Source of the DNA: an uncultured Pseudomonadota bacterium
GTDB taxonomy: Bacteria > Pseudomonadota > Gammaproteobacteria > Burkholderiales > JALYOK01
Length of the DNA: 64,000 nt
Assembly (NCBI GenBank): GCA_963840785.1
Contig: CAWJAF010000003.1
Span: forward strand, 23,682 to 87,681
Direction: 5' to 3'
Position numbers and translations under genes: made by a program. This document shows, piece by piece, positions 15,602 through 30,077 of this stretch. Below the pieces are notes generated by a model. That model searched no databases, was not told the DNA's origin, and saw only the letters and a list, made by a program, of their open reading frames with translations. Every line of letters starts with the position of its first letter. Position 1 is the stretch's first letter.

Positions 15602-15611
15602 AGAAAACGCC

Positions 15612-17458: not shown

Positions 17459-18304
17459 ATTCCAAGCGCGATTCGATGTTTCGCACTGACGTTTCTTGCG
17501 TGCGTTATATCGGCCTGCAGTGATAGCGATCAAATAAATCACACCATTCAGCCTGCCAACTTCACATACACTGGCGATGAGCGGGATGGTCACTGCGATC
17601 CCAAGCTCAAGCCAGGGCGCGGCGGTCTAACAAACGGCGAACGTAGTGCGAAAGGCGTTCGCTATAACGTCCGCGCGCCGCTAAATTACGATCCGACCCA
17701 TCGCCACGGACTGATCATGGTTTACGCCCCCGCCGCAACAAGCGCCGTACAAACCGAACGGCTGATGCATTTCACGCAACAGGCAACAGGTGCCGGATTC
17801 ATTGTCGCCTACGCGGATCATGTAACGCTCGGGTTGCCCGCTGCGCGAGAACTCGCAACGATTCCACAGCGCATAAGCGAAAAATGGTGCGTCGACGCGA
17901 AACGGATTTTTCTGACCGGGCATTCCGATGGCGGAACCATATCGCATATCGCGTCATTGCTACCCGAGAATCGCGATACCGTTCAAGGCATTGCGCCAAG
18001 CGCCGCCGGTGTTGTCGCCGCCGATCTGCAAACCTACGGATGCCGTAAGCCCTCGCCGGTGTTGATTATGCATAGCAAAAACGATTCGTTGTTTGCAGGT
18101 TTCGGCACCCAAACTGCGCAATGGTGGGCGCACTGTAATCGCTGCGACATCACCCGGAAGGAACCTTTAGCAAATGGCTGTATTGCGTATCAGGGATGCG
18201 CCACCGGAGCGCCAACATGGTATTGTGAAGGCGACGCTGGTCATCGCACTTGGCCGGACAGAAATGGGACGCTAATCGATTTTTTCGGCAAACAAATGAA
18301 CTGA
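17459..18304 (+). CDS. Lipoprotein alpha/beta-hydrolase esterase (PHB-depolymerase/LpqC-like), probably ATT-initiated
   Basis: ORF track starts at 17717, but the frame is open from 17459 and reads (I/M)PSAIRCFALTFLACVISAC/SDSD, a lipoprotein signal with lipobox ISAC. GGAG lies 8 nt before ATT 17459. Nucleophile elbow GHSDGG and C-terminal GDAGHRTWP. Confidence 0.65.
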   Translation: MPSAIRCFALTFLACVISACSDSDQINHTIQPANFTYTGDERDGHCDPKLKPGRGGLTNGERSAKGVRYNVRAPLNYDPTHRHGLIMVYAPAATSAVQTERLMHFTQQATGAGFIVAYADHVTLGLPAARELATIPQRISEKWCVDAKRIFLTGHSDGGTISHIASLLPENRDTVQGIAPSAAGVVAADLQTYGCRKPSPVLIMHSKNDSLFAGFGTQTAQWWAHCNRCDITRKEPLANGCIAYQGCATGAPTWYCEGDAGHRTWPDRNGTLIDFFGKQMN

Positions 18305-18312
18305 CCATATCT

Positions 18313-18705
18313 ATGAATTTTCGACTAACTGCGGTTATTAATCGAATTCTGATCGCCTGCATTGTGACCCTGTCGCTGCTCAGCGCTAGCGAATCTTACG
18401 CCCACGCAAAGCTGGTCAAATCCGATCCTGGGCGCCGCGCTGTGATCAAAACATCACCGAAAGAAATTCGCCTTTGGTTTAACGAGAAACTCGAGGCGGC
18501 CTATTCCTCCGCGACGTTATCCGAAGGCAGCGGAAAAACGATAGCCACCGCGCCAGCGACCATTACCAACGACGATCCAAAGCGCATGACTCTCACTATC
18601 GATAAACTTCTGCCCGGTGTCTACCGCGTTAAATATCGCGTTCTATCGGTCGACGGCCATGTAGTGGACTCTAGCTTCACGTTCACCGTCCAACCGGCGC
18701 AATGA
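18313..18705 (+). CDS. copC: CopC-domain periplasmic copper-binding protein
   Basis: Signal peptide ends SYA, then HAKLVKSDPGRRAVIKTSPKEIRLWFNEKLE...YRVLSVDGHVVDSSFTFTV, the classic CopC fold signature with an N-terminal His. Confidence 0.85.
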   Translation: MNFRLTAVINRILIACIVTLSLLSASESYAHAKLVKSDPGRRAVIKTSPKEIRLWFNEKLEAAYSSATLSEGSGKTIATAPATITNDDPKRMTLTIDKLLPGVYRVKYRVLSVDGHVVDSSFTFTVQPAQ

Positions 18706-20648
18706 TCGAATGGGTCGGCCCCATTGCGCGTTGGCTGCATCTAATTTCCGGCGCACTCGCGTTCGGCGCCATGTGGTGGCTCACGCGCGGGACATTAACG
18801 GCGAACCGGCAAAATAATATTTGGCGCAGCCTGCCATGGCTACTGATATTGTTTATTGGCACGGCGCTCGTCGTGCTTGCCGGCCACACGGCCCAGGCGC
18901 TGGGCACAACAGGTTTTTCGATCAGCCTCAGCGAAGTTTCAAGGTTCGCATTTCAAACCCAATTTGGAAATGTTTGGTTGGGTCGCCTGATCGTCGCAGC
19001 GCTCCTGCTGATTTATTTGTTTGCCACTCGTTCACGCGCAGTAATCGCCACACTCATTGTCGTTGGCATTTTGCAGGCTTCGCTCGCGCTCGCAGGCCAC
19101 GGCGTGGCATCGGACGCGCCCATTCTGGCGCAAGTTTGCCATGCCGCTCATGTGCTCGCAGCGAGCGCTTGGCTCGGCGGACTGGCAACAATGCTCAGTG
19201 GAATGGCCACAACCCGGTTGTTGGATAACGTGACGCGCTCAGCGAAAGACATGCGTGTGTTTTCCGAATTCGCCCTGTCCTGCATGATCGTCATCGTGAT
19301 GAGCGGCATCGCGATTGCCGCGCTGCAAATTCAGAGTTGGCCTGGACTATTCGGAACCAATTACGGCGAACGATTACTCATTAAAATCGCGTTACTGCTT
19401 GCCGCGCTCGCGATTGCCGCACATCTGCGTTGGCGCACCCTCAAGACGATTGATGTAAGCCTCGCCGACCCGACAAAACGCCGCAACCTCGCGCAATGGC
19501 TTGCCGTTGAGCTCATTTTCGCCATTGCCATTATCTGGATGGCCGCATCCCTCGCCGTCACACCACCCGCGCAACACGAGCAAATCAACTGGCCCTTCGC
19601 ATTTCGAATTGCGCCGGAGGTGACCTGGCCGAAACCAGATCTGCAAGCGCAATTCTGGTGGGGCCTGGCGATCATTGCGGCAGGTATTGCTTGGATGGGG
19701 TGGTCCTGGCGACAATTCGGCCTGCATCGGCGCGACGTCCTTCTCGGCATTGCCGTTGCCGGACTGGGCGTTTGGATTGCCATTCCGGCACTGAGCGTCC
19801 CGGCTTTTCCGGATACCTATCGACGCAGCAGCGTGCCTTACCAATCCATTTCAATCGGCCAAGGCCAGCGCCTCTTCGCGCAACATTGCGTGAACTGCCA
19901 CGGCATCGATGCCACCGGCAATGGCGCGCTGGCGAAAAGTCTGCCGAAGCCGCCGGCCGACCTGACCGCACCCCATACTGGCGATCACACTGCCGGCGAT
20001 ATGTTCTGGTGGCTGACGCACGGCATGGCCAACACCGGTATGCCCGCGTTTCCGCAACTGAGCGAAGAAGATCGTTGGGACCTGGTGAATTTCGTACACA
20101 CCCTGGCCACCGGCTACGAAGCACGTGTCATTCGCGAACGCATCGTGCCCATGCGCCCATGGTTAGGGGCGCCGGATTTCAACTATGTCGCGAATGATGG
20201 CTCGAGCGGTTCGCTAAAACACTTTCGCGAACGAGGATCGGTCTTGTTGATACTATTCAGCGAGAAATCCAGCGCACGGCTCGAACAACTTAGCGAAGTC
20301 AGTTCAACGCTTGCTAAATTCCGCACTCAGATCATCGCCGTTCCGCTAGAATCTGCACCCATATCGACGACAAAGTTTGCGTTTCCCATCATCTCCGAAG
20401 GCGGCGAAGACATTGCACGTAGTTACCAGTTACTGCGCCGAACCATCGAGAATCCTCGATTGGGCGAGCGAGCGCCGCGACCGACTCACATGGAGTTTCT
20501 GATCGATCGCTATGGGTACCTGCGTGGGCGCTGGTTGCCCGAGGACACCGAGCCCGGCTGGCGCGACAAGCGCAATCTAGTTGCTCAAGTGGAACAACTC
20601 GCACGCGAACCGCGCGTTAAACCGCCGCCAGACGAACACTTACATTAA
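18702..20648 (+). CDS. copD: CopD-family membrane protein fused to a mono-haem cytochrome c domain and a ~190-aa C-terminal domain
   Basis: ATG overlaps the copC stop (ATGA). About 10 TM segments of CopD type. Then QRLFAQHCVNCHGIDATGNG...HGMANTGMPAF (CxxCH plus Met). The tail GSVLLILFSEKSSARLEQL looks thioredoxin-fold-like but has no Cys pair. Confidence 0.8.
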   Translation: MIEWVGPIARWLHLISGALAFGAMWWLTRGTLTANRQNNIWRSLPWLLILFIGTALVVLAGHTAQALGTTGFSISLSEVSRFAFQTQFGNVWLGRLIVAALLLIYLFATRSRAVIATLIVVGILQASLALAGHGVASDAPILAQVCHAAHVLAASAWLGGLATMLSGMATTRLLDNVTRSAKDMRVFSEFALSCMIVIVMSGIAIAALQIQSWPGLFGTNYGERLLIKIALLLAALAIAAHLRWRTLKTIDVSLADPTKRRNLAQWLAVELIFAIAIIWMAASLAVTPPAQHEQINWPFAFRIAPEVTWPKPDLQAQFWWGLAIIAAGIAWMGWSWRQFGLHRRDVLLGIAVAGLGVWIAIPALSVPAFPDTYRRSSVPYQSISIGQGQRLFAQHCVNCHGIDATGNGALAKSLPKPPADLTAPHTGDHTAGDMFWWLTHGMANTGMPAFPQLSEEDRWDLVNFVHTLATGYEARVIRERIVPMRPWLGAPDFNYVANDGSSGSLKHFRERGSVLLILFSEKSSARLEQLSEVSSTLAKFRTQIIAVPLESAPISTTKFAFPIISEGGEDIARSYQLLRRTIENPRLGERAPRPTHMEFLIDRYGYLRGRWLPEDTEPGWRDKRNLVAQVEQLAREPRVKPPPDEHLH

Positions 20649-20669
20649 TTTTTCACCTATGGATCAAAA

Positions 20670-21101
20670 ATGAAACTTTCGTCTCTTTGTAAAAATACCG
20701 CACTCGCGATTGCCACCGTGTTTGCGCTCAACGCCAGCAATGCGCAAGCCCACAGCGACGATTATTTCGATGCCAATCCGTCGCCTCACGGCGGCCAAGT
20801 TCGCATGTCCGGTGCCTATCATTTTGAATTGCTGATGGATGAAAAAGAAATCGTCGTTTACGTGACCGATCATGGCAATCAACCCATCGCCAGCACCGGC
20901 GCGACCGGGACGCTGGAGATTAAGACCGGAAGTAAAAAAACTGTTATTGAGCTTGCGCCCGGCGAGGGAAACATTCTCAAGGCGAACGCCCCTTGGCCGG
21001 GAACGCCGTCGCCGGATTTGAATGCGCAACTCAGCGTAACTTTCCCTAACAAAAAACCCGCCAAGGCAAAATTTACGCCGTTCGCGAAGCGACGTAAGTA
21101 A
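20670..21101 (+). CDS. Small secreted protein of unknown function (mature N-terminal His)
   Basis: Signal peptide ends AQA/HSDD. HGGQVRMSGAYHFELLMDEKEIVVYVTDHGNQP. Lys-rich tail. Confidence 0.6.
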   Translation: MKLSSLCKNTALAIATVFALNASNAQAHSDDYFDANPSPHGGQVRMSGAYHFELLMDEKEIVVYVTDHGNQPIASTGATGTLEIKTGSKKTVIELAPGEGNILKANAPWPGTPSPDLNAQLSVTFPNKKPAKAKFTPFAKRRK

Positions 21102-21199
21102 GCATCGCCAAGACGCGCTACCCGCTTGCTTCTCCAAGCAGACCATGCCAGCAGCCAACATCCATGGGCCTCCTGGCGAGAGTGGCCAAAGCAATGCGC

Positions 21200-21229
21200 T
21201 TGACACATTAGACTAGACTGTCTAGTCTA
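21200..21229 (+). promoter_or_regulatory. -35 box plus a perfect palindromic operator upstream of the TetR gene
   Basis: TTGACA (21200-21205) is followed by TAGACTAGAC-T-GTCTAGTCTA (21209-21229), ending 26 nt before the TTG start at 21255. Confidence 0.55.
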
Positions 21230-21254
21230 GCGACCGACACGTGAGGATAATTCG

Positions 21255-21872
21255 TTGGTTCGTCAAAAACAATCCGCTGAGCTAGAAACCATCAACGGCA
21301 GCAAGCGCAAACTGGTGTGCGATGCCGCCATTCGTGTGTTTATCGAAGACGGCTATAGCGCGAGCATGGAAAGCATTGCTGCGCGCGCCGGCGTCGCCAA
21401 GCAAACGCTGTACAACCAATTTGGCAACAAAGAAAGTTTGTTTGCAGAAGTGATTCGCCAGAGCGTCGACGATATTACTGTTTCGCTCGGCGAACCGAGC
21501 GCGGATTTGCGCCGCTCCTTGCTACGTTTCGCCGCGGCATTTCGTGCCAAGGCACTGTCGCCCTATGGACTGGGAATGCATCGCGCGCTGATTGCTCAGG
21601 CGCCAAGATTTCCAAAATTGGCGCGGATCGCCCACGAGAAAGGCGCCGCCAATGCGCGCGATACCCTCGCGAAATTTTTACAGCAAGCGATGGATACGGG
21701 AAAATTGCGCAAAACCGATTCGCAATTTGTCGCGGAGTTATTGCTCGGCATGCTCGCAGGCTTCGAGCGCGTACGCTTGTTGTACGGCGTCAAAACCGAT
21801 CCAACATCGCTGAATGAAAAACAGAAATGCGTTGCCATCGTTGATTGTTTTTTAAACGGTTTGGCAGCTTAG
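21255..21872 (+). CDS. TetR/AcrR-family transcriptional repressor
   Basis: N-terminal HTH KLVCDAAIRVFIEDGYSASMESIAARAGVAKQTLYNQFGNKESLF. TTG start preceded by GAGGAT. Confidence 0.85.
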   Translation: MVRQKQSAELETINGSKRKLVCDAAIRVFIEDGYSASMESIAARAGVAKQTLYNQFGNKESLFAEVIRQSVDDITVSLGEPSADLRRSLLRFAAAFRAKALSPYGLGMHRALIAQAPRFPKLARIAHEKGAANARDTLAKFLQQAMDTGKLRKTDSQFVAELLLGMLAGFERVRLLYGVKTDPTSLNEKQKCVAIVDCFLNGLAA

Positions 21873-21923
21873 GATTTAAAACTAAAGCGGTACAAAACAT
21901 AAATCGTTGAGGAGAAGTAGATC

Positions 21924-24900
21924 ATGCGTTCGTACATTGAATTTATCGTCAAATTTCGTTGGATTGTCATTGCGCTGGTTGCGGCAGCGACGATATTTTT
22001 GAGTATGCGTGGATCCTCCTTGACGGTGATTATCGATCCGAACAGCATTGTTCCCAGGTCGCATCCATTCGTTGCGACCACACTCAAAGTAGAAGAAGTC
22101 TTCGGTTCGCGTTACGTCGCGGTAATTGGCATTACACCGAAGACCGGCGACGTCTTTCAAAAAAGTGTGCTGGAAAAAGTTCAGCGCATCACCGCCGAAT
22201 TGCGTACAACGCCGCGCATCGTTAAAACCAATTTGCTATCAGTCTCGGCGCGCCGCGCGAAAGATATCGTCGGCACCGCAGAAGGCATGTCGGTAAAACA
22301 GATGATGACGGAAGTGCCGACAACGCCGGAAGGAATGGCCGAATTAAAAAAGGCATTACAGCGAAATACCGCCTACATGAATTCAGTCGTTTCGAACGAT
22401 TGGAAGACCATCACCATCCTTGCCGAAGTGCGCGACGCGAAGCCGGAAGAAAAGAAGTTAAAGATGGGCGGATTCTCATACATCGCCGCAAAGATTAATG
22501 CGATCGCCGATAAGGAAAGAGACGAAACCGTGGACATTGCGGTGACCGGCTATCCCGCGTTCTTGGCAATGATCGAGAAATATTCCGGGCGGATGAAATG
22601 GATGTTGCTCGCGGCACTAGTGATTATCGGTCTCATCCACTATGAGGCATTCCGCACCATTCAGGGTTTGATTCTGCCATTGCTCACGCCGCTCGTCGCG
22701 GTGGAGTGGAGTAAAGGCTTCATGGGATTGGCCGACGTGCCCCTTGATATTTTTAACATGTCGACGCCGATATTAATTTTAGCGGTCGGTGCCGGACACG
22801 CGGTGCAAATGTTGAAACGCTATTACGAGGAATATAACCGGCTCAATCCTAATCCGGAGCCCGCAGTCGGCCTGCCGCCGATTGCTGGAAGTACTTCGTC
22901 GAATCTGTTCGCATGGATCGGGATTTGGATTTTGTGCGCCCTTCCCTACGCATACTTCGCTTGGAACGGCGCGCCGGCTGGCCCTTGGATGCCCCTTTCT
23001 ATACTGCTTGCGTTGTTGCCGTGGATTTATTGCTATTGGATTCGTCCCTATAAGCTCGCCAGCGCGCAATCGATTCAAGCGAGCAGGCAAGCGGTTACCG
23101 ATTCGATCCTAAAGATCGGCCCGGTGATGATCACGGCCGGCTTGGTTGCCGCATGCGGATTTTTCTCGCTGTATGTGTTCGACATTATTTCAATCAAAGT
23201 GTTCGGCATATTCTCCGGGATCGGTATTCTGAGCGTGCTTATTGTCGAATTGACGCTCATTCCGGCGGTGCGCTCCGTGTTGCCCCCACCGCGCGAAAAA
23301 GAAGCCCGCATGGAACGTGAAGAGCGTTTCTGGGATCGCCTGACGAATTTCTATTCCAATACCTTGTTGGGCCCCAAACGTGATCGCATCTTTGTTGTCG
23401 CGGGTGTCGCCGTGATCATCGCCCTATTCGGCATGAACCGCCTCGCCGTTGAAAGTTCACTGAAAAAATACTTCGATCCGGAACTGCCGTTACTGCAAAG
23501 CGATGCTAAGCTGAACGAGCGCATGGCGGGCACGAATAACATTTATCTGTTGATCGAAGGTGACAAGGTCGATGCCATTAAAGATCCCGCCGTGTTAAAA
23601 GCGATGGATCAATTACAGGAATTCGTCGCCAAGCAACCGAACATCGGCAAGGTCATTTCGATCGCCGAATTCATTAAACGCATGAATCAATCGATGAATG
23701 GCGACGATCCCGCGTTCTTCAAAATTCCTGATAAGCAAGAAACCATCGCTGAATATCTGTTGCTTTATTCGATGTCGGGCGAGCCAGGGGATTTTGATCC
23801 CTATGTCGACTATGACTATCGCTTAGCCAATATGGTGGTATTCAGTCATAGCGACAGCACGTTAGAAATGCGTAAATTTTGGGAACAAACAAAAGCTTTT
23901 GCCGAGAAAACGTTCCCGCCGAACATCAAAGTGAACGTCGGCGGCAGCGTTGCGCAAAGTGCGGCGATTACCGAAGTGATTGTGAAGGATAAAATCCTGA
24001 ACGTTCTTCAGATCGCGTCAGTTGTGTTTGTGGTCGCGTCGTTGGTATTCCGTTCGCTGGCTGCGGGGCTGTTGGTCATTACGCCTTTGCTGCTCTCGGT
24101 AATCATTAACGTCGGCTTGATGGGCTTATTGGGCTTGCGCTTAAATGTTCCAACCGCGTTAACCTCCGCGCTCGCGATCGGCATCGGTGCCGACTATGCG
24201 ATTTATATGTTGTTCCGCCTGCGCGAAGAACTGGCCAAAGGCATCGACGAAGAACAAGCATTCCGTAACGTGATGCGCACCGCGGGAAAAGCCTGTTTGT
24301 TCGTTGCTTCTGCGGTCGCCGGTGGCTATGCGGTTCAGGCATTCTCGCGCGGCTACTATCCGCACACCTGGAACGCGCTATTGATTGGCACCGCGATGTT
24401 GGTCAGCGTAACGGCGGCGTTAACCGTTATGCCTGCGTTAGTTTTAAAATTCCGTCCTAAGTTTATTTTTAATGGAGCTAAAAATATGAAGTTATCCCCC
24501 GCTGCGGCTACTACAATTGCCGTTGCCGTTGTCGCCGTCTTGTCCTTTGGCCACACGAAATCCGCCTATGCGATCACGCCGGTCGAAATCATGGAGAAAA
24601 ACTTCATGGTTGCAAAAATCGCCGATACGACAACGCAGACCACGATGACCTTGACGAATAAATCGGGACAAAAGCGCGTGCGCAAAACTGCCGGCGTCAC
24701 CAAGCTCGAGCCGAATGGCATCGACAATAAGCGCATGACGCGGTTTCTTGAGCCGGCGGACGTGAAAGGCACGGTCTCATTGTTAAGCGAGCATTCGGAC
24801 AAAGACGACGATATTTGGATTTACCTGCCCAGCATCAAAAAAGTGCGCCGCCTCGTTTCCAGCAACAAAAAAGATAGCTTTGTCGGAACCGATTTTTCAT

Positions 24901-25298
24901 ACGGCGATGTGATCGGCCATAAGGTAAACGAATGGACTCACAAATTGATCAAGGAAGAAGACGTTGACGGTAAAATGGCCTATGTCATCGAATCCTTGCC
25001 GCGTGATGCGGCAATCAAAGCCAATTCGGGTTATTCAAAGCGCATGAATTGGATTCAAAAGGATAACTTCGTAACCCTCAAGGGAATGCAATACGACGAG
25101 GCGGGCGAATTGGTCAAGGAATCTCGCTTTGGGCGTTTCAGGAATGTCGATGCCGCTAAAGGCAAGTGGCTGACCGGCGAGCTAACAGTAAAAAATGTCC
25201 AAACCGAGCACACTACACACATTTATACTGACGATCTCAAATACAATATCGGCGTTAAAGACGATTACTTCACCACCCGTTACATGGAACAACAATAG
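21924..25298 (+). CDS. RND-superfamily (MMPL-type) exporter whose ORF continues in frame into a LolA-like domain
   Basis: 1124-aa ORF. The first ~850 aa has two 6-TM bundles with large periplasmic loops typical of MMPL/RND exporters. There is no stop before the LolA-like part. Confidence 0.8.
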   Translation: MRSYIEFIVKFRWIVIALVAAATIFLSMRGSSLTVIIDPNSIVPRSHPFVATTLKVEEVFGSRYVAVIGITPKTGDVFQKSVLEKVQRITAELRTTPRIVKTNLLSVSARRAKDIVGTAEGMSVKQMMTEVPTTPEGMAELKKALQRNTAYMNSVVSNDWKTITILAEVRDAKPEEKKLKMGGFSYIAAKINAIADKERDETVDIAVTGYPAFLAMIEKYSGRMKWMLLAALVIIGLIHYEAFRTIQGLILPLLTPLVAVEWSKGFMGLADVPLDIFNMSTPILILAVGAGHAVQMLKRYYEEYNRLNPNPEPAVGLPPIAGSTSSNLFAWIGIWILCALPYAYFAWNGAPAGPWMPLSILLALLPWIYCYWIRPYKLASAQSIQASRQAVTDSILKIGPVMITAGLVAACGFFSLYVFDIISIKVFGIFSGIGILSVLIVELTLIPAVRSVLPPPREKEARMEREERFWDRLTNFYSNTLLGPKRDRIFVVAGVAVIIALFGMNRLAVESSLKKYFDPELPLLQSDAKLNERMAGTNNIYLLIEGDKVDAIKDPAVLKAMDQLQEFVAKQPNIGKVISIAEFIKRMNQSMNGDDPAFFKIPDKQETIAEYLLLYSMSGEPGDFDPYVDYDYRLANMVVFSHSDSTLEMRKFWEQTKAFAEKTFPPNIKVNVGGSVAQSAAITEVIVKDKILNVLQIASVVFVVASLVFRSLAAGLLVITPLLLSVIINVGLMGLLGLRLNVPTALTSALAIGIGADYAIYMLFRLREELAKGIDEEQAFRNVMRTAGKACLFVASAVAGGYAVQAFSRGYYPHTWNALLIGTAMLVSVTAALTVMPALVLKFRPKFIFNGAKNMKLSPAAATTIAVAVVAVLSFGHTKSAYAITPVEIMEKNFMVAKIADTTTQTTMTLTNKSGQKRVRKTAGVTKLEPNGIDNKRMTRFLEPADVKGTVSLLSEHSDKDDDIWIYLPSIKKVRRLVSSNKKDSFVGTDFSYGDVIGHKVNEWTHKLIKEEDVDGKMAYVIESLPRDAAIKANSGYSKRMNWIQKDNFVTLKGMQYDEAGELVKESRFGRFRNVDAAKGKWLTGELTVKNVQTEHTTHIYTDDLKYNIGVKDDYFTTRYMEQQ
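24486..25298 (+). other. LolA-like 'outer membrane lipoprotein-sorting protein' module with its own SD, ATG and signal peptide, in frame with the RND ORF
   Basis: GGAG lies 8 nt before ATG 24486. MKLSPAAATTIAVAVVAVLSFGHTKSAYA/ITPVEIMEKNF. Also DIWIYLPSIKKVRRL and DGKMAYVIESLPRD...YSKRMNWIQKDNF. Confidence 0.7.
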
Positions 25299-25311
25299 CG
25301 ATTGGAGCCCT

Positions 25312-26691
25312 GTGCAAATATCTAATTCCTATGTCGACTTGATTCGACACGCGCTGCGTAGTTTGTTTGGACTTGGAATGATCGTCGGATCGTCGATTGC
25401 GCTTTGCGCCGATGAGGGCGAACCGCCGATGGCACCTGCTGAACCGACGATGGTTCCCGCAGAAAACGCGGATGTTCCGCGTACTGGCTTTGCCGGCATG
25501 AAGCAGGAACTCCACGACTGGGGCATCACCGGCTCGTTGCGCGGCGCCTATTGGTATTCCAATCGCCGCTCGGACGACGAAAAACATATCCCTAATGTTT
25601 CAGCTTGGTTGAAGCTTGATCGTAAACTGATAAAAGATTGGGGCATTTTCGTCGAAGGTTATTTGAACCGTGAAGATCCGTTCGATACGCGCAAAAACAC
25701 CAGCCGTTTTCGCGAAGCTTATGTCGAAGGCCGCAGCGGCGATTGGGATTTTCGTTTCGGCAAGCAGATCATTGCGTGGGGACGCGCTGATCGTTTTAAT
25801 CCAACCGATAATCTGACGCCGCGTGATTTTACGTTGCTAGCGCCGGAAACAGATGAAGATCGATTCGGGTCAGTCTCCGCCAAAGTCAGTTGGAATATCA
25901 ATTCATCGACGAGCCTAACGGGAGTCTGGCTACCGATGTTCCGCCCGCACGCCTTCGCCGTTCCCGATCAGCCTGGTATCTCGGTTGATAAAGATACGCC
26001 TGACGGCGCGCGGCAATGGGCGTTAAAACTTGATCAATCGGGCAAATCCATCGATTGGTCGGTTTCCTATTTTGATGGCTTTGATCTCACGCCGGACATC
26101 AGTTTTGGCGGCATCGCCACGAACGGAAATCTCATCGCGAAATTTCGCAACAACCGCACCCGCGTTCTGGGCGCAGACGCAGCAACAACGCTCGGCGCCT
26201 ATCGCCTCGCCACGGAAATCGCGTTCACCCGCACCGAAGATAACGGCGGCGGCAATCCCGACATCAAAAATTCTCATTGGTATGGCGTCTTTGGTGTTGA
26301 GCGTTCGTTCGAAGATAATTTAACCATTAACACGCAACTGTTCGGGCGGCGAGTTAGCCACTATTCCAATCCCGAGGACATCGCCAATCCAGCGATACAA
26401 CCGTTCGCCGTGCAAAACGCGATCATTAACAATCAGTACGACAAGCTCCAATATGGATTGACTTTGCGCGTCGCGAAAAAATGGTTCAACGAAACCTTGG
26501 AAGGCGAACTCGCCGGCAGCGTGCTGCTGAATCGCGCGGGTTATTTGATTCGACCGAAAATGGTCTACGCCTACAGCGATAGCATTAAGCTAATCGGCGG
26601 ATTCGAATATTTTGGTGGATCCGAAAAAACTTCCTATGGCAGCCAAAATAAAAATCGCGGTGTATTTGCGGAAATGCGTTATTTCTTTTAG
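25312..26691 (+). CDS. Putative outer-membrane beta-barrel protein partnered with the RND/LolA-like pair
   Basis: GTG 25312 after GGAG. Signal peptide. Alternating beta-strand-like pattern. C-terminus AEMRYFF ends in Phe, a typical OMP beta-signal. Possibly DUF1302-like (unverified). Confidence 0.6.
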   Translation: MQISNSYVDLIRHALRSLFGLGMIVGSSIALCADEGEPPMAPAEPTMVPAENADVPRTGFAGMKQELHDWGITGSLRGAYWYSNRRSDDEKHIPNVSAWLKLDRKLIKDWGIFVEGYLNREDPFDTRKNTSRFREAYVEGRSGDWDFRFGKQIIAWGRADRFNPTDNLTPRDFTLLAPETDEDRFGSVSAKVSWNINSSTSLTGVWLPMFRPHAFAVPDQPGISVDKDTPDGARQWALKLDQSGKSIDWSVSYFDGFDLTPDISFGGIATNGNLIAKFRNNRTRVLGADAATTLGAYRLATEIAFTRTEDNGGGNPDIKNSHWYGVFGVERSFEDNLTINTQLFGRRVSHYSNPEDIANPAIQPFAVQNAIINNQYDKLQYGLTLRVAKKWFNETLEGELAGSVLLNRAGYLIRPKMVYAYSDSIKLIGGFEYFGGSEKTSYGSQNKNRGVFAEMRYFF

Positions 26692-26913
26692 CTAAGAAAT
26701 GTTGCGGCGCTAAGGCATCAAGATTTTCGATTCGCTCGCTGCACGATATTTTTCCGTGTCTACCGCAGGTTCGGCGCACTCGCTGCGCTACAGTAATAAG
26801 GCAATGCCTGTAGAAGCCCATTAACACTTGTTCTACAGGCATACTCTGCCACAAGGCAAGCAGGATGTGGCTTGTGGCAGAGCAAGATAAACCCAGGCCG
26901 ATATTTTTATGCG

Positions 26914-28590
26914 CTAGCGCCAACCACGTTCACGCCAAAATGTGACCACCGTTTCGCCCCACGTATCGTCGCGCTGAATGGTCGCCGTTTGTGTTGGATG
27001 ACCGTCGGCCGCCTTGACAAGTATGATCGCCGTGGAATTTTTTGTTGGATTGAGAGCGCGTGGGTCAATTGCCGTAAATTGCGTTTGTATCTCCGTCATT
27101 TTGGCGATCAATTCGTTGAGTTTTTTCGAATCGCCGGCCGCAGCAGCAGCCATCAATTCTTGTTGCATCGCTTGCATCTTCGGCATCTGTGTTTTCATAT
27201 TTTTTTCGATCGCGTCGGCACTTTTCATCACTTCGCGGCCTTCCGACATTTTCTTGATAACGATTTCAGCCGACTCTTTGCTGGTAAACACGGCGCGTTC
27301 CCGCGTGCTGGCAAAATAGCGGAACCGTAAACTGTCAGAAGACTTAATTTCAAATTGTCCGGGTTGCGGCGAAAGCTCAGGAACCAACCCCGAGGTGAAA
27401 TCATCCGCGAATCCAGTACGATCACGCGGCCGCCATTTTTGCATGGCCGTCCAGCGAGAGCTATCGACACCTTGCAACAAACGTTCAGCCGAATCCCTGA
27501 CTGCCGGCGACGGATCGTCGACCATTTCCATCGCGAATTCAATTTCATCCGGGGATTCAGCGTAACCTAACATCAGCAGCGCCTGGCGTTTCAGCATGGG
27601 TAAATCAGCGTGGGCAAGCTCGAGTAACGATTCGCGTTCGATTTGCTCACCACTGCGATGCATCATGCGAATTAGATCGTACAAACCGACTTCGATGTTG
27701 CTTGCCAATCTATTGCACTGCTCGCCAGCCGTGCTTTCGCATGTTTGTTCCCATTGTGCAATTAAGTCTTCCAACGGCTCGTCAGAAATTGCAGCGCCGG
27801 TGATAATCGCAATCGAGCCGGGGCTCGTCACAAAGCCGGTTTTGCGTGCGCCGCCGCGGTTTTTGACAATCTTGCCGCCCTTCTTCGCCAACTTCTTTGC
27901 ATCCTTTGGCGTCGGTACGGCATTGGGGCCCGTTGAACCCTGCCAGCCGCAACTTAATGCGAGGTCCTTAGTTTGTTGCCGCAAATAATCGATACCGGCT
28001 TTATATGCTTCGGAATCGTTTCGTGCGAAAAACTCCAAGCTATCCCATTTGCTTTGCTTACCGGCAGCATTTAATTCCTTGCAGGTTTTTTCGTGATATT
28101 GCTCGTGGATGTAGGGATACCGCGCCAGGGCCTCGCAGGTTTTCTTTTGCGACTTCATATATTCCTCCTCTGTTTGAGGAGCCACAACTGGATCGCCATT
28201 GCTGTCCTTTACCGGATTGCCTTTCGCATCGTATTGAAACGCTCCGATGGTACATCCCGGGCTGCGAAAGTCTGTGCCCAATTCCGCATGGGCGCCATTG
28301 GCGGTACCGGCATTATTCTTAGGTGCTTTCGGATTGAATTGCTGCTGCATCAATTCGGCAGCGCGACTCTGCATCGTTTCGATATCGTTGATATTCGACG
28401 GCATGTAGTCGTTCCAACTAAAAAACAGTTTCTGCAGAAACTCTTGCTCGATGATTTCTTTCACCATCGCCGGAAGATTTTTGCAGGCACAACTTGGTGG
28501 CATGCCGTCTTTGGTTTTATCCGCAGCAGATGTCAACGTCGTGAAAGTTAGCAACGTCAGCACAACAATAGCGATCCCAATCCGCTTCAT
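26914..28590 (-). CDS. Secreted Cys-rich protein of unknown function with HEAT-like repeats
   Basis: 558 aa. Signal peptide ends TSA/ADK. 10 Cys in the first ~300 aa of the mature protein. DDPSPAVRDSAERLL is HEAT-like. ATG overlaps the upstream stop (ATGA). Confidence 0.6.
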   Translation of the reverse strand: MKRIGIAIVVLTLLTFTTLTSAADKTKDGMPPSCACKNLPAMVKEIIEQEFLQKLFFSWNDYMPSNINDIETMQSRAAELMQQQFNPKAPKNNAGTANGAHAELGTDFRSPGCTIGAFQYDAKGNPVKDSNGDPVVAPQTEEEYMKSQKKTCEALARYPYIHEQYHEKTCKELNAAGKQSKWDSLEFFARNDSEAYKAGIDYLRQQTKDLALSCGWQGSTGPNAVPTPKDAKKLAKKGGKIVKNRGGARKTGFVTSPGSIAIITGAAISDEPLEDLIAQWEQTCESTAGEQCNRLASNIEVGLYDLIRMMHRSGEQIERESLLELAHADLPMLKRQALLMLGYAESPDEIEFAMEMVDDPSPAVRDSAERLLQGVDSSRWTAMQKWRPRDRTGFADDFTSGLVPELSPQPGQFEIKSSDSLRFRYFASTRERAVFTSKESAEIVIKKMSEGREVMKSADAIEKNMKTQMPKMQAMQQELMAAAAAGDSKKLNELIAKMTEIQTQFTAIDPRALNPTKNSTAIILVKAADGHPTQTATIQRDDTWGETVVTFWRERGWR

Positions 28591-29969
28591 TTTTTATCCT
28601 CCAAATTTCTTGCTGGGTTAAACAGGCCCGTCAACTCTAAATTGAATTGGCTCTGCGCATTAGTCGGCTCAAGCCGCAGTGCTTCTCGAAAAGACGCGCG
28701 CGCGAATTCAACATTGTCATCCGCCAGATGGGCCATCCCTAAATTATTCCATGCGCGGCTTGAATGCGGCACATTGCGTAGCGCCTCCTGCCAAAGACGA
28801 ACCGGATTGCTCCAAACCGCAGCGCGCCATGCGCATAAAGCACTTAACGCAATCACCCCGAATAAAATGCAATAGTAACGCATACGCAGGCCATTGAAAG
28901 TCGCGAACCAACGACCCGCGCCAGCTCCCAACGCGATCGCCGGGCCTACCCAGGCGAGACAAAGCGGCGATTCGCTGATTGAATCCAATTTTGCGATAAA
29001 CGAGTGAGTGGGAAGCAACGCAATCAATGGCCACAGTAATCCTATCGTTAGCATCGGTCGCGTGTGACGCATCGCGACGGCAATCGTCGTCCAAGCAAAG
29101 ATCGCTGCCGCGCCAAGAACGGCAGCGACATAACTCGTCGACGGCAGCGCATGCTCGATCGAGAGCGCCCAGGGCCGCAGCAGCAATGACGCAGTCAAGG
29201 GCAACGCGGTGAGATTCCGGTACAACGATTCTAACGGTGAGCGCAGATCAAGTGAGTAGGCCAGCAATTCGCGGTAGCGTGAAAGGGCCAGCGCATACAC
29301 GGCCAGCGCGAACGTCGCAACGATGTATGGCAATGTCCGCCGCAATGCCGCGCCAATCTGATGAGAACTATTCGGCTTGGCCCATTCCCATAACAACAGA
29401 AGCAATGGAAAAATTAATGCGACCTCTTTCGCGGCGCAAGCGGCAAAATAAAGCACGATGGAAATGCCAATCATGACCTTGCGGTATGCGGGATTGCGCG
29501 CAGCACATTCGTAAAAAACTAGCGCCCACACCAAACACGCCGTCATAAGCGCCGAAGATCGACCACTGACATAAGCAACCACCGCGCCATGCGCAGGTTG
29601 CAAGGCGAAAATCAGCGCGGCCAGCATCGCACCGATCTGGTTGGACACAACGGATCTTGCGAGTCGCCACACGCCAATCGTTGAAATTACGTGAATTAGG
29701 AGATTGCTGCCAAACCAACCCGATGTCGATTTACCCCATAGGGCAAAGTCAATCGCGTAGGTCAGTCGTGTTAGCGGCCGGATGCCATGGGCGAGCCGTT
29801 CCCAGAGCAGCGGACCCATGGCCGTCGCGGGATCATTCAAAATATTGGGATAGTCGTCGTACTGAAAACGGCCGAATAAAATTCCGCCCCAACCGATAGC
29901 GATGGAAACGAATAGCAACCAAGCAAATGGATGGTCGATTTTCCTGATCAGTTGCACAGCACGTTTCAT
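28587..29969 (-). CDS. GT-C-fold membrane glycosyltransferase-like protein (PMT/TMTC-like) with C-terminal TPR
   Basis: About 10 TM segments. First-loop motif GRFQYDDYPNILNDP (the DD motif of PMT/TMTC-type enzymes). C-terminal TPR: AWNNLGMAHLADDNVEFARASFREALRLEP. Confidence 0.6.
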   Translation of the reverse strand: MKRAVQLIRKIDHPFAWLLFVSIAIGWGGILFGRFQYDDYPNILNDPATAMGPLLWERLAHGIRPLTRLTYAIDFALWGKSTSGWFGSNLLIHVISTIGVWRLARSVVSNQIGAMLAALIFALQPAHGAVVAYVSGRSSALMTACLVWALVFYECAARNPAYRKVMIGISIVLYFAACAAKEVALIFPLLLLLWEWAKPNSSHQIGAALRRTLPYIVATFALAVYALALSRYRELLAYSLDLRSPLESLYRNLTALPLTASLLLRPWALSIEHALPSTSYVAAVLGAAAIFAWTTIAVAMRHTRPMLTIGLLWPLIALLPTHSFIAKLDSISESPLCLAWVGPAIALGAGAGRWFATFNGLRMRYYCILFGVIALSALCAWRAAVWSNPVRLWQEALRNVPHSSRAWNNLGMAHLADDNVEFARASFREALRLEPTNAQSQFNLELTGLFNPARNLEDKK

Positions 29970-30048
29970 CGATTCAATGGTTAATGCCCGAAGATGCTCA
30001 TGAATACTGCCTCACCGACCTGCCTTGCTTGAAAGCAAGTATCCATGC

Positions 30049-30077
30049 GCGTTCCCCGCACACGCGGGGATGAACCG
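30049..30077 (+). CRISPR. Solitary type I-E-like CRISPR repeat (no array)
   Basis: GCGTTCCCCGCACACGCGGGGATGAACCG, 29 nt. It matches the I-E consensus shape GTTCCCCGC-N4-GCGGGGAT-AACCG. I found no second copy at spacer distance on either side. Confidence 0.45.

What the first reader, a model, noticed from the sequence alone, without database searches (positions are those of the whole stretch)
21200..26691. TetR-gated RND(MMPL) / LolA-like / outer-membrane-barrel module, with RND and LolA-like parts in one reading frame
A -35 TTGACA and a perfect 10-bp-arm palindrome (TAGACTAGAC-T-GTCTAGTCTA) precede a TetR gene. Next comes a 1124-codon ORF in which an MMPL-type RND exporter runs without a stop into a LolA-like 'lipoprotein-sorting' module. 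That module keeps its own SD (GGAG), its own ATG (24486) and a signal-peptide-like helix (MKLSPAAATTIAVAVVAVLSFGHTKSAYA). Topologically the helix could serve as a 13th TM that places the LolA-like domain in the periplasm, so a true fusion is feasible. A predicted beta-barrel gene follows. This three-compartment arrangement looks like a trans-envelope conduit for a hydrophobic molecule. It sits directly next to a monooxygenase whose likely substrates and products are hydrophobic.
Basis: partly seen in the sequence, partly recalled or inferred. Interest (0 to 1): 0.6.

Follow-up and report, generated by a model that had tools for sequence, protein, structure and literature searches.

The report
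Lipid pump fused to its chaperone
This is a repressor-controlled operon for a three-part system that probably moves a greasy molecule from the inner to the outer membrane; its pump and periplasmic carrier sit in one gene, an arrangement that is genuine and widespread, so the locus is a normal member of a little-studied family.

Summary
A TTGACA box, a perfect 10+10 palindrome (21209-21229), a TetR gene, a 1124-codon MMPL-RND + LolA_like ORF and a DUF1302-type barrel gene are all present. The barrel starts at GTG 25312, not ATG 25195.

The fusion is not an error. About 70 of 80 related loci from named genomes carry both parts in one ORF, across Beta-, Gamma- and Alphaproteobacteria, Bdellovibrionales, Rokubacteria and Nitrospirota. 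These include Acinetobacter, where it sits in an A1S_0112-0119-type lipopeptide cluster, and Pseudomonas. Split versions form two clades nested inside the fused ones. A protein with the same domain architecture was reported in Thalassolituus (TOL_3187).

The hydrophobic stretch at the junction behaves like a retained signal peptide, not a 13th transmembrane helix. All 63 distinct junctions keep a small-x-small cleavage motif. Fifty-three keep an in-frame start codon (about 50 with a Shine-Dalgarno), held by nucleotide-level selection: Gly is GGA in 36/37, Arg-Arg is AGG-AGA in 12/12, Val is GTG in 17/18. AlphaFold gives the stretch pLDDT about 27.

I infer that the carrier is released as a soluble periplasmic protein. 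The copper monooxygenase neighbourhood recurs in only one other contig. Substrate unknown. New member of a known kind.

The parts
21200..21228 (+). Putative sigma-70 promoter: -35 TTGACA (21200-21205), a 17-nt spacer, and a weak -10 TAGTCT (21223-21228)
   Evidence: Read directly from the sequence. TTGAC(A/C) sits 3-4 nt before the operator in all ten distinct TetR-bearing loci examined, the window included. The consensus scan did not list it, because the -10 matches only 3 of 6 positions.
21209..21229 (.). TetR operator candidate: a perfect 10+10 palindrome, TAGACTAGAC-T-GTCTAGTCTA, overlapping the spacer and the -10
   Evidence: it is unique in the window and 0 of 100 shuffles matched. The consensus TAGACTrGAC-N-GTCTAGTCTw is conserved in L001, L003, L008, L009, L013, L014, L017, L037 and L039, where the TetR proteins are 43-86% identical. 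Homology between the window and L008 begins at 21196, just upstream of it.
21255..21872 (+). TetR-family repressor gene (205 aa, TTG start)
   Evidence: TetR_N E 1.5e-15 and TetR_C_7 (AefR-like) E 5e-20. It lies directly upstream of the pump gene in 12 of 76 related loci, all of them among the closer relatives.
21924..25298 (+). Single ORF of 1124 codons: an MMPL/HAE3-type RND transporter followed in frame by a signal-peptide-like segment and a LolA_like domain
   Evidence: More than 80 protein clusters at 50-96% identity have both domains. About 70 of 80 genome loci have them in one ORF. The AlphaFold2 model has pLDDT 80.6 and pTM 0.70. The RND part matches MmpL4, MmpL5 and MmpL3 with target-normalised TM-scores up to 0.80.
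22836..23078 (+). Lineage-specific insertion in the cytoplasmic loop after TM4 (about residues 305-385), with two extra hydrophobic helices
   Evidence: It is absent from most homologues, which is why many hits cover only 66% of the query. Hydropathy peaks lie at 328-346 and 355-373. AlphaFold2 predicts helices at 324-348 and 355-378 with pLDDT 57-73. Nucleotide homology with L017 and L091 breaks here.
24474..24488 (+). Internal translation-initiation signals inside the ORF: GGAG (24474-24477), an 8-nt spacer, and ATG 24486 (Met855)
   Evidence: An in-frame ATG/GTG/TTG candidate is kept in 53 of 63 distinct fused junctions, and about 50 of these have GGAG, AGGAG, GGAGG or AGGA 4-12 nt upstream (mostly 4-8). 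The Shine-Dalgarno is encoded through different amino acids in different clades. Codon bias at the junction is strong: Gly is GGA in 36/37 against a 12% background, Arg-Arg is AGG-AGA in 12/12 against 7% each, and Val is GTG in 17/18 against 39%. Split relatives carry the same signals.
24486..24572 (+). Signal-peptide-like segment MKLSPAAATTIAVAVVAVLSFGHTKSAYA (residues 855-883), with a predicted signal peptidase I site A-Y-A|I after Ala883
   Evidence: The hydropathy peak is at 857-875. A hydrophobic core, a Pro/Gly/polar c-region and a small-x-small motif are present in all 63 distinct junctions. Strict A-x-A occurs in 37/63, against 5/52 after TM1 and 11/48 after TM7 of the same proteins. 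AlphaFold2 gives pLDDT 26-30 and no helix for 851-883. Cleavage is inferred, not shown.
24573..25295 (+). LolA_like (PF17131) periplasmic carrier domain, residues 884-1124
   Evidence: PF17131 E 2e-54. Solved relatives are 3bk5 (E 4e-32), 9tp6 (7e-31), 4z48 (1e-25) and 3buu (1e-8). The domain is modelled confidently, with pLDDT about 78-87.
25312..26691 (+). Outer-membrane beta-barrel gene (DUF1302-like, 459 aa, GTG start, signal peptide)
   Evidence: The start was re-assigned. DUF1302 E 5e-9, above the cut-off. The AlphaFold2 model (built from residue 8, nt 25333) has pLDDT 84 and an all-beta barrel. Foldseek finds only generic 16-18-strand porins: AlgE, OccD, chitoporin and OmpM1, with TM-score about 0.5. 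A homologue lies immediately downstream of the pump/carrier in 70 of 80 loci.

Best explanation
The locus 21196-26691 is one autoregulated operon, tetR-[RND-LolA_like]-barrel. It encodes an envelope-spanning transporter for a hydrophobic or amphiphilic molecule. It belongs to the family that pairs an HAE3/MMPL pump with a LolA-like carrier and a DUF1302 barrel.

**Regulation (inferred from anatomy and conservation).** TetR binds the palindrome that overlaps the promoter. It should come off when it binds an unknown lipophilic ligand.

**Transport (inferred).** The proton-driven MMPL-type pump takes the cargo out of the inner membrane. The LolA-like half-barrel carries it across the periplasm. 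The porin-like barrel receives it at the outer membrane. Export is the likelier direction.

**The fusion (shown).** Pump and carrier in one reading frame is a genuine state and the ancestral one for this family.

**Release of the carrier (inferred).** The segment at the junction is a retained signal peptide, not a structural 13th transmembrane helix. The carrier would therefore end up as a free periplasmic protein by two routes:
1. Internal translation from the conserved Shine-Dalgarno and ATG at 24474-24488, followed by ordinary Sec export.
2. Signal peptidase I cleavage of the full-length fusion after Ala883.

The substrate in this organism is unknown.
For: **Domains and folds.**

**The fusion is genuine and ancestral.**
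- More than 80 fused protein clusters.
- About 70 of 80 genome loci are fused, across several phyla.
- Split forms make two clades nested inside fused ones in a neighbour-joining tree.

**The operon is conserved.**
- The barrel gene lies directly downstream in 70 of 80 loci.
- The promoter and operator are conserved in all TetR-bearing relatives.
- Homology with L008 runs exactly from 21196 to 26691.

**Internal start.**
- An in-frame start candidate is kept in 53 of 63 junctions, about 50 with a Shine-Dalgarno 4-12 nt upstream.
- The Shine-Dalgarno is written through Asn-Gly, Arg-Arg, Gly-Glu or Glu-Gly-Gly in different clades, with strong codon bias.
- Split relatives use the identical signals and have ordinary signal peptidase I signal peptides without a lipobox.

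**Cleavage.**
- The motif and c-region are present in all 63 junctions. Nine of the 10 junctions with no start candidate (L047, L056, L059, L062, L063, L068, L085, L086, L087) also keep a clear motif; the tenth, L083, has only a marginal G-W-G.
- The segment is not modelled as a helix, with pLDDT 26-30.

**Export direction and lipid cargo.**
- In Acinetobacter nosocomialis the homologue sits between an NRPS and a phosphopantetheinyl transferase, in a cluster whose composition matches A1S_0112-0119. a1s_0116 mutants lose surface motility, which depends on the surfactant acinetin 505 (PMC7997844).
- In Pseudomonas huaxiensis it follows LuxE, aminotransferase, acyl-AMP ligase and flavin monooxygenase genes.
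- AmeABCD deletion lowers monoterpene tolerance and raises Nile Red accumulation (PMC6394551).
Against: - No experiment exists on this protein or on processing of any relative.
- The loose signal-peptidase motif is not discriminating. It also occurs after 71-92% of control helices. The cleavage case therefore rests on the strict A-x-A enrichment, the c-region anatomy, and retention in lineages without an internal start.
- The junction sequences are phylogenetically related, so the counts overstate independent events.
- Low AlphaFold2 confidence is weak evidence against a transmembrane helix.
- Thalassolituus TOL_3187/3188 are induced by the growth substrate n-C28 (PMC6304351). P. putida DUF1302/DUF1329 mutants are defective on fatty esters. 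Both would also fit uptake.
- The TIGR00921 HAE3 score (217 bits) is below its curated cut-off (352).
Confidence: 0.62

Rival explanations
1. The hydrophobic stretch is an uncleaved 13th transmembrane helix that keeps the LolA-like domain tethered to the pump in the periplasm, so pump and carrier work as one polypeptide.
For: There is one ORF with no stop. The topology parity is right, because the RND C-terminus is cytoplasmic and the Arg/Lys-rich RPKFIFNGAKNMK precedes the helix. Ten lineages have no in-frame start candidate at the junction and so can make only the fusion. A tether would hold the carrier at the pump's exit.
Against: A small-x-small motif with a signal-peptide-type c-region is kept in every junction while the rest of the linker sequence drifts freely. 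Split relatives work with a free, signal-peptide-bearing carrier of the same sequence type. The internal Shine-Dalgarno and start are under nucleotide-level selection, which has no purpose if only the fusion matters. AlphaFold2 does not pack the stretch against the bundle. A carrier tethered to the inner membrane could reach the outer-membrane barrel only through the short linker between helix and domain.
Confidence: 0.2
2. The module is functionally coupled to the neighbouring copper membrane monooxygenase. It would import the monooxygenase's hydrophobic substrate or export its hydrophobic product.
For: The order amoCAB-orf-orf-copD-tetR-RND/LolA-barrel is collinear over 12 kb at 69-77% nucleotide identity in a second contig, L088. 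The CuMMO is a non-canonical betaproteobacterial type. Its AmoA scores about the same against AMO and pMMO structures (223 against 208 bits), and its named relatives are Burkholderiaceae, Methylibium and Vitreoscilla MAGs. Some CuMMOs of this kind oxidise short alkanes (Rochman et al. 2020, cited in PMC8941013). A protein of the same architecture in Thalassolituus is induced on n-C28.
Against: The four distinct closest loci (89-96% identity; five loci counting the near-duplicate L002) have ApbA and AMP-binding genes upstream instead. None of the 80 genome loci has amoA, amoB, amoC or copD within 8 kb. The module has its own promoter and operator, and its homology block starts at 21196. The same cassette is attached to unrelated contexts such as NRPS, LuxE-type, PagP and thiamine genes. 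Short-chain alkanes and ammonia need no carrier. No RND pump is known to import.
Confidence: 0.1
3. The single reading frame is a sequencing or assembly artefact, or a recent pseudogene-like loss of a stop codon between two genes.
For: Split relatives exist. They differ from fused ones only by plus or minus 1 nt in an A-rich tract between the Shine-Dalgarno and the start.
Against: The same frame is present in independent assemblies at 89-96% identity, with substitutions but no indels at the junction, and in about 70 of 80 genome loci from many phyla, including isolate genomes of Acinetobacter, Pseudomonas, Ramlibacter and Peristeroidobacter.
Confidence: 0.01
4. The LolA-like part is a true Lol-pathway component that sorts lipoproteins (or the barrel protein itself) to the outer membrane, as database names and the Thalassolituus paper suggest.
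For: The NCBI name is 'outer membrane lipoprotein-sorting protein'. The domain belongs to the LolA/LolB-like fold group.
Against: The match is to PF17131 and DUF1329, and the hmmscan listed no canonical LolA family. The partner is an RND pump, not the LolCDE ABC transporter. The barrel has an ordinary signal peptidase I-type signal peptide and no lipobox. Barrels are assembled by Bam, not Lol (established knowledge).
Confidence: 0.02

Closest known systems
Thalassolituus oleivorans TOL_3187 / TOL_3188 (Gregson et al. 2018, PMC6304351)
   Same: [quoted passage not shown] This is the same two-gene core as here. The proteins are expressed: TOL_3187 rises 42-fold on n-C28, and TOL_3188 is found only on n-C28.
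   Different: No TetR is reported. The context is an alkane degrader. The authors read it as lipoprotein or porin sorting plus alkane entry. Processing of the fusion was not examined. I did not compare the sequences, because Thalassolituus was not among the 80 loci kept.
Acinetobacter A1S_0116 / A1S_0117 in the A1S_0112-0119 (acinetin 505) cluster
   Same: The homologue in A. nosocomialis NIPH 2119 (L087, 39% identity) has MMPL and LolA_like in one ORF, followed by a barrel gene. a1s_0116 mutants are defective in surface motility, which fits export of a lipopeptide surfactant (PMC7997844).
   Different: It carries an extra N-terminal SRPBCC/Polyketide_cyc2 domain (1248 aa) and no internal Shine-Dalgarno or start. 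It is embedded in an NRPS operon under quorum-sensing control, not under a TetR. The papers I read call it simply an RND transporter. Orthology of L087 to A1S_0116 is inferred from cluster composition.
Castellaniella defragrans AmeABCD and the DUF1302/DUF1329/BNR/RND clusters of Pseudomonas and Shewanella
   Same: They combine an HAE3-type RND pump, a LolA-superfamily periplasmic protein and a DUF1302 outer-membrane protein. Genetic evidence points to a role with hydrophobic compounds: monoterpene tolerance, Nile Red, Tween 20 and butyl stearate.
   Different: They have four separate genes, including a BNR/COG4447 beta-propeller that is absent here. Their carrier is the larger DUF1329 type (about 450 aa) and their barrel is about 600 aa. 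The gene order is reversed (barrel first) and there is no fusion.
MmpL3/MmpL4/MmpL5, HpnN and NPC1 lipid-transporting RND proteins
   Same: They share the fold of the pump part, with target-normalised TM-scores of 0.72-0.80 for the MmpL proteins. An Asp-Tyr pair in the GIGADYAIY helix and a His in the GAGHAVQ helix are invariant. These are plausible proton-relay positions by analogy with MmpL3; I did not map them onto that structure.
   Different: Sequence identity is only 14-15%. Those pumps hand cargo to unrelated partners (MmpS, periplasmic lipoproteins) or to none. None is fused to a LolA-like domain.
Polyproteins cut at internal signal sequences: Bradyrhizobium fbcH cytochrome b-c1 precursor (my recollection of Thony-Meyer et al. 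1991; not retrieved) and flavivirus polyproteins (PMC7601889)
   Same: A multi-pass membrane protein is followed in frame by an internal signal sequence and an exported domain that signal peptidase releases. This is the mechanism proposed here.
   Different: The protein families are unrelated. Here cleavage is only inferred, and a second route (an internal start) seems to coexist.

Membership tests
TetR-family repressor with autoregulated operator | An N-terminal TetR-type helix-turn-helix plus a ligand-binding C-terminal domain | tested here: met
   TetR_N 57 bits (cut-off 24) and TetR_C_7 72 bits (cut-off 22).
TetR-family repressor with autoregulated operator | A palindromic operator overlapping the promoter of its own or its target operon | tested here: met
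   The perfect 10+10 palindrome at 21209-21229 lies between the -35 and over the putative -10. It is conserved with the -35 in all ten distinct TetR-bearing loci examined, the window included.
TetR-family repressor with autoregulated operator | Binding of the protein to the operator and release by a ligand | not testable with these tools
   Needs EMSA or footprinting and a ligand screen.
RND superfamily, MMPL / HAE3 branch | A match to the family profiles above the curated cut-off | tested here: inconclusive
   Pfam MMPL scores 169 bits against a cut-off of 20.5, so it is met. TIGR00921 HAE3 is the best NCBIfam hit, but its 217 bits fall below the cut-off of 352.
RND superfamily, MMPL / HAE3 branch | Two repeats of 1+5 transmembrane helices, each with a large periplasmic domain after its first helix, and an RND lipid-transporter fold | tested here: met
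   The hydropathy profile and AlphaFold2 secondary structure show this pattern. Foldseek matches MmpL4, MmpL5, MmpL3, NPC1 and HpnN with probability 1.0 and target-normalised TM-scores up to 0.80. There is a lineage-specific extra helical hairpin at residues 324-378.
RND superfamily, MMPL / HAE3 branch | Conserved charged or polar residues in the transmembrane helices that could form a proton relay | tested here: inconclusive
   H292, D757 and Y758 are invariant in 77 homologues. Their equivalence to the MmpL3 Asp-Tyr pairs was not mapped on a structure.
LolA_like / TP_0789-like (PF17131) | A profile match over the whole domain and similarity to solved members | tested here: met
   184 bits against a cut-off of 30, covering profile positions 2-184 of 184. 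3bk5 E 4e-32, 9tp6 7e-31 and 4z48 1e-25.
Canonical LolA of the LolABCDE lipoprotein pathway | A match to the LolA family and association with a LolCDE ABC transporter | tested here: not met
   The hmmscan listed no canonical LolA family at E <= 0.01. The partner in about 80 loci is an RND pump.
DUF1302 outer-membrane protein (PF06980) | A profile match above the cut-off, a signal peptide and a beta-barrel fold | tested here: met
   36 bits against a cut-off of 23.2, covering profile positions 94-465 of 541. Most homologues carry a precomputed PF06980 hit, and NCBI names some 'DUF1302 family protein'. The barrel model has pLDDT 84. This protein is shorter (459 aa) than AmeA (605 aa).
AmeABCD-type four-component HAE3 system | A BNR/COG4447 beta-propeller protein encoded in the cassette | tested here: not met
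   The barrel follows the pump/carrier directly: a 13-nt gap here, and offsets of about -105 to +21 nt in 70 of 80 loci. The flanking ORFs in the window have TetR, HEAT and TPR matches, not BNR. The rest of the genome was not searched.
Fused MMPL + LolA_like architecture (TOL_3187 / A1S_0116 type) | Both domains in one ORF, followed by a barrel gene | tested here: met
   The architecture is annotated by JGI as 'predicted RND superfamily exporter protein/outer membrane lipoprotein-sorting protein' and is described for TOL_3187.

The most novel reading that the evidence does not exclude
The pump gene is a conserved nested gene and polyprotein in one. The same stretch of mRNA would yield two products. 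One is a pump-carrier fusion that signal peptidase I cuts at an internal signal sequence. The other is extra free carrier precursor made from an internal Shine-Dalgarno and start codon. The cell could then make carrier in excess of pump from a single ORF. A shift of 1 nt in the A-rich tract converts the gene into the two-gene form, and the tree implies this conversion at least twice. I know of no RND system shown to be processed this way.
Probability: 0.5. Interest if true: 0.55.

Novelty: new member of a known kind. Interest (0 to 1): 0.35.

Why it matters
The family is widespread. A pattern-limited scan of 185,579 species genomes found 411 loci. It includes the transporter of the Acinetobacter acinetin-505 cluster, yet no member has a defined substrate, direction or mechanism.

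Three conserved features turn a vague 'fusion protein' into a specific hypothesis that can be tested in a tractable organism such as Acinetobacter or Pseudomonas:
- the fused form is ancestral;
- the junction keeps a signal-peptidase site;
- the junction keeps an internal ribosome-binding site.

For this window the practical message is mostly corrective. The frame is right. The barrel gene start and the '13th helix' reading should be revised. The monooxygenase next door is not a dependable guide to function.

Tried and rejected
- **Literature searches with no useful result.** Searches for 'TP0789', for 'outer membrane lipoprotein-sorting protein' + RND, and for 'fbcH' + polyprotein + signal peptidase found nothing relevant. 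One search was badly framed and returned Drosophila lola papers.
- **Paper not held.** Rochman et al. 2020 (PMC7031514) is not in the library. The alkane-CuMMO link therefore rests on a reference list and on my own knowledge.
- **Barrel fold search.** Foldseek against the PDB returned only generic porins, so it gives no functional clue.
- **Promoter scan.** The consensus scan did not report the promoter, because the -10 matches only 3 of 6 positions. The terminator-like hits are at background level, 15 found against 10.5 expected.
- **Loose signal-peptidase motif.** The pattern [ASTVGC]-x-[AGS] was dropped as evidence. It also follows 37/52 TM1 and 44/48 TM7 control helices.
- **'Monooxygenase adjacency is unique to this genome'.** I held this view. 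One search corrected it by finding L088.
- **Canonical ammonia oxidiser as the source.** Rejected. AmoA scores about equally against AMO and pMMO structures, and no Nitrosomonas or Nitrosospira names appear among its relatives.

Full report
**1. What is in the sequence**

- TTGACA lies at 21200-21205. It is followed 3 nt later by the perfect palindrome TAGACTAGAC-T-GTCTAGTCTA at 21209-21229.
- The palindrome is unique in the window. No match appeared in 100 dinucleotide-preserving shuffles, even with three mismatches allowed.
- Seventeen nucleotides after the -35 lies TAGTCT, a weak -10 that the operator overlaps. The consensus scanner did not list it, because only 3 of 6 positions match.
- The TetR gene (21255-21872, TTG start) has TetR_N and an AefR-like TetR_C_7 domain.
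- The next ORF (21924-25298) is 1124 codons without a stop. It carries an MMPL-type RND transporter and, at residues 934-1123, a complete LolA_like domain (PF17131, E 2e-54). The best NCBIfam match is HAE3, below that model's cut-off.
- GGAG (24474-24477) and ATG 24486 (Met855) sit in frame at the junction. They are followed by MKLSPAAATTIAVAVVAVLSFGHTKSAYA.
- The third gene is a DUF1302-like protein.

One correction is needed. The barrel gene does not start at ATG 25195, which would overlap the pump gene by 104 nt. It most likely starts at GTG 25312, 14 nt after the TAG stop and 4 nt after GGAG. That gives 459 aa, the length of the 91%-identical homologue P0121.

**2. The fusion is genuine, widespread and ancestral**

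A search of 5.8 billion proteins returned more than 80 clusters of 1045-1171 aa that carry both domains, at 50-96% identity. They come from ENA, JGI, NCBI and Logan assemblies. JGI already annotates some of them as 'predicted RND superfamily exporter protein/outer membrane lipoprotein-sorting protein'.

A scan of one genome per species (185,579 species) found 411 related loci, of which 80 were kept. Translating them shows pump and carrier in one uninterrupted ORF in about 70. These include:
- many Burkholderiales, Nitrotoga, Gallionella, Methylobacter, Acidiferrobacterales and Tenderia;
- Pseudomonas huaxiensis and Pseudomonas sp. Irchel 3E13;
- Acinetobacter nosocomialis, Phenylobacterium, Sphingomonadales, Ramlibacter and Peristeroidobacter;
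- Bdellovibrionales, Rokubacteria, Manganitrophaceae and a deltaproteobacterium.

About ten loci have two genes, whose stop and start overlap as ATGA or GTGA. In a neighbour-joining tree of the pump part, these split forms fall into two separate clades nested inside fused clades. Fission therefore happened at least twice, and the fused state is the older one.

The nearest relatives (89-96% identity, independent assemblies) differ from the window at the junction by substitutions only.

**3. What the junction is**

I extracted the junction from 63 distinct fused sequences. The linker sequence is poorly conserved, but its anatomy is constant:
- a basic stretch after the last RND helix (RPKFIF...);
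- a hydrophobic core of 12-20 residues;
- a c-region of 5-9 residues rich in Pro, Gly, Ser and Gln;
- a small-x-small motif, such as AYA|I, AHA|L, AWA|L, TWA|A, SYA|A or ASA|D;
- then the conserved start of the LolA-like domain (...EIMEKNF...).

This is the layout of a signal peptide cut by signal peptidase I. The permissive form of the motif is uninformative, because it also follows most TM1 and TM7 control helices. The strict A-x-A form is enriched: 37/63 at the junction, against 5/52 after TM1 and 11/48 after TM7.

In 53 of 63 junctions an in-frame ATG, GTG or TTG sits at the start of the basic n-region. In about 50 of these, GGAG, AGGAG, GGAGG or AGGA lies 4-12 nt upstream, mostly 4-8 nt. 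The Shine-Dalgarno is written through different amino acids in different clades: Asn-Gly-Ala, Arg-Arg, Gly-Glu and Glu-Gly-Gly. The codons used are strongly non-random:

| Junction position | Observed | Background in the same genes |
|---|---|---|
| Gly codon | GGA in 36/37, next base G in 35/37 | 12% |
| Arg-Arg pair | AGG-AGA in 12/12 | 7% each |
| Val at the start position | GTG in 17/18 | 39% |

This is selection on the nucleotides, not on the protein. It argues that ribosomes also start inside the ORF. Split relatives carry exactly the same Shine-Dalgarno and start, and an ordinary signal peptide without a lipobox. Fused and split forms differ by a 1-nt shift in the A-rich tract between the Shine-Dalgarno and the start.

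Ten junctions have no in-frame start candidate, and an eleventh (L049) has only a TTG without a Shine-Dalgarno. They include Acinetobacter, Rokubacteria, Manganitrophaceae, Acidiferrobacterales, Tenderia and Peristeroidobacter. All keep the hydrophobic core, and all but L083 (a marginal G-W-G) keep a clear cleavage motif. In those lineages only cleavage of the fusion would explain the motif.

The AlphaFold2 model (77-sequence alignment, pLDDT 80.6, pTM 0.70) folds the pump and the carrier confidently. It leaves residues 851-883 without secondary structure, at pLDDT 26-30. AlphaFold2 often gives signal peptides low confidence in this way, whereas a helix packed in the bundle would usually score higher; this is weak evidence.

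Topology is consistent. The RND C-terminus is cytoplasmic, and the two extra helices of the lineage-specific insertion (residues 324-378) preserve parity. The stretch would therefore cross the membrane from inside to outside, like a signal peptide.

My reading is that the carrier ends up free in the periplasm, both by internal initiation and by cleavage of the fusion. Both steps are inferred, not shown.

**4. The other parts and the operon**

- The pump part matches MmpL5, MmpL4 and MmpL3 structures (target-normalised TM-score 0.72-0.80), then NPC1/NPC1L1 and HpnN. All of these are lipid-handling RND proteins.
- H292, D757 and Y758 are invariant in 77 homologues.
- The carrier matches the structural-genomics proteins 3bk5, 4z48 and 3buu, and a recent entry, 9tp6.
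- The barrel model (pLDDT 84) is an all-beta barrel that resembles 16-18-stranded porins such as AlgE, OccD and chitoporin. TM-scores are only about 0.5, so there is no specific solved relative.
- A barrel homologue lies immediately downstream of the pump/carrier in 70 of 80 loci.
- The TetR gene is adjacent only in the closer relatives, 12 of 76 loci. Wherever it is present, the -35 and the operator TAGACTrGAC-N-GTCTAGTCTw are conserved at the same spacing.
- Nucleotide homology between the window and the 96%-identical locus L008 runs from 21196 to 26691 exactly. That span covers the promoter through the barrel stop codon, and the flanks are unrelated.

**5. The monooxygenase next door**

Upstream lie amoC, amoA and amoB, two unassigned ORFs, copC and a CopD-cytochrome c-AhpC/TSA-like fusion.

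This is not a canonical ammonia oxidiser. AmoA scores 223 bits against AMO structures and 208 against pMMO. Its relatives are uncultured Burkholderiales, and the named ones are Burkholderiaceae, Methylibium and Vitreoscilla MAGs at 54-64% identity. CuMMOs of alkane-using Betaproteobacteria are known (Rochman et al. 2020, seen only as reference 34 of PMC8941013). The substrate here is open.

The adjacency is not unique. Contig L088, whose pump/carrier is 78% identical, has amoCAB-orf-orf-copD-tetR-pump/carrier-barrel. It is collinear with window 13791-25791 at 69-77% nucleotide identity.

Against a functional link:
- The four distinct closest loci (L001, L008, L089, L090, 89-96% identity; L002 is a near-duplicate contig) have ApbA and an acyl-AMP ligase upstream instead.
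- L091 has yet another context.
- None of the 80 genome loci has amo or copD genes within 8 kb.

The module has its own promoter. Its wider family is attached to unrelated neighbours, so I rate functional coupling as unlikely but not excluded.

**6. What the family does elsewhere**

- In A. nosocomialis the homologue carries an extra N-terminal SRPBCC domain. It lies between an NRPS (C-A-T-TE) and a barrel gene, a reductase/hydrolase and a phosphopantetheinyl transferase, preceded by an acyl-AMP ligase and an acyl-CoA dehydrogenase. This is the composition of the A1S_0112-0119 cluster. a1s_0116 mutants lose surface-associated motility, which depends on the surfactant acinetin 505 (PMC7997844).
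- In P. huaxiensis it follows LuxE-type acyl-protein synthetase, aminotransferase, acyl-AMP ligase and flavin monooxygenase genes.
- In Thalassolituus, TOL_3187 has the same domain architecture and TOL_3188 is a predicted porin. Both are induced on n-C28 (PMC6304351).
- The unfused, four-gene AmeABCD system of Castellaniella confers monoterpene tolerance (PMC6394551).
- DUF1302/DUF1329/BNR/RND genes are co-fit in several Gammaproteobacteria.

Association with biosynthetic clusters, together with the outward direction of all characterised RND pumps, favours export. The alkane and fatty-ester data leave uptake possible.

**7. Verdict**

It is partly wrong: a cleavable signal peptide is more likely than a 13th helix, the monooxygenase link is weak, and the barrel start was misplaced.

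The locus is a new member of a known but uncharacterised kind. The most interesting residue is the conserved double provision for releasing the carrier from inside the pump ORF. I did not find it described in the papers I read, and it can be tested directly.

Noticed in passing
window 13832-20648: A copper membrane monooxygenase cluster: amoC, amoA, amoB, two unassigned ORFs, copC, and a 648-aa CopD-cytochrome c-AhpC/TSA-like fusion. It is of a non-canonical betaproteobacterial type. AmoA scores about equally against AMO (223 bits) and pMMO (208 bits) structures. Its closest relatives are uncultured Burkholderiales, and no Nitrosomonas or Nitrosospira names appear.
   Followed up: partly
window 13791-25791 and L088 92-11780: The whole block amoCAB...copD-tetR-pump/carrier-barrel is collinear with a second metagenomic contig at 69-77% nucleotide identity. 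Yet loci whose pump is more similar (89-96%) have ApbA and AMP-binding genes upstream. The gene tree and the neighbourhood disagree, which suggests either repeated loss of the monooxygenase block or recombination of the cassette.
   Followed up: partly
window 20670-21101 (+): An ORF of 143 aa with no family assignment lies between copD and tetR. It has a clear signal peptide (MKLSSLCKNTALAIATVFALNASNAQA|HSDD) and a His/Asp-rich mature N-terminus. It may be a small periplasmic metal-binding protein of the copper cluster. Only its last 150 nt or so align with L088.
   Followed up: no
window 22836-23078 (residues about 305-385 of the pump): A lineage-specific insertion of two hydrophobic helices in the cytoplasmic loop after TM4. 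It is variable in length and sequence among the closest relatives, is present in another form in P0037 and in the unfused P0105, and is absent from most of the family.
   Followed up: partly
window 26692-31354: This stretch is an insertion relative to L001 and L090, where DctP follows the barrel gene directly. It holds two minus-strand genes (558 aa with a weak HEAT match; 460 aa with TPR repeats) and a 140-aa ORF with a Cas4/PD-(D/E)XK nuclease match at 30686-31108.
   Followed up: no
L027, L030-L032, L058 junctions (for example L027 about 6845-6865): In split relatives the pump's stop codon and the carrier's start codon overlap (ATGA), directly after a run of 6-7 A. Fused and split forms differ by plus or minus 1 nt in this tract. 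Such runs are prone to slippage, so some fused product might arise even from split genes.
   Followed up: no
L009, L015, L034, L042, L044, L060, L068, L069, L084: A second barrel homologue lies 4.4-5.0 kb downstream of the first module. That spacing is what a tandem second copy of pump/carrier plus barrel would give.
   Followed up: no
L087 7395-11141: The Acinetobacter homologue is a triple fusion of 1248 aa: an N-terminal SRPBCC/Polyketide_cyc2 lipid-binding domain, then MMPL, then LolA_like.
   Followed up: partly
L008 about 7172-7250: A long, near-perfect inverted repeat (GGGTGGATCAAGCGTAGCGGATCCACC ... GGTGGATCCGCTACGCTTGATCCACCC) lies just upstream of the tetR promoter in the 96%-identical relative. 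It sits at the point where homology with the window ends.
   Followed up: no
window 8043-12530: A PrkA-DUF444-SpoVR gene trio (a stress or starvation kinase cluster) lies directly upstream of the monooxygenase cluster.
   Followed up: no
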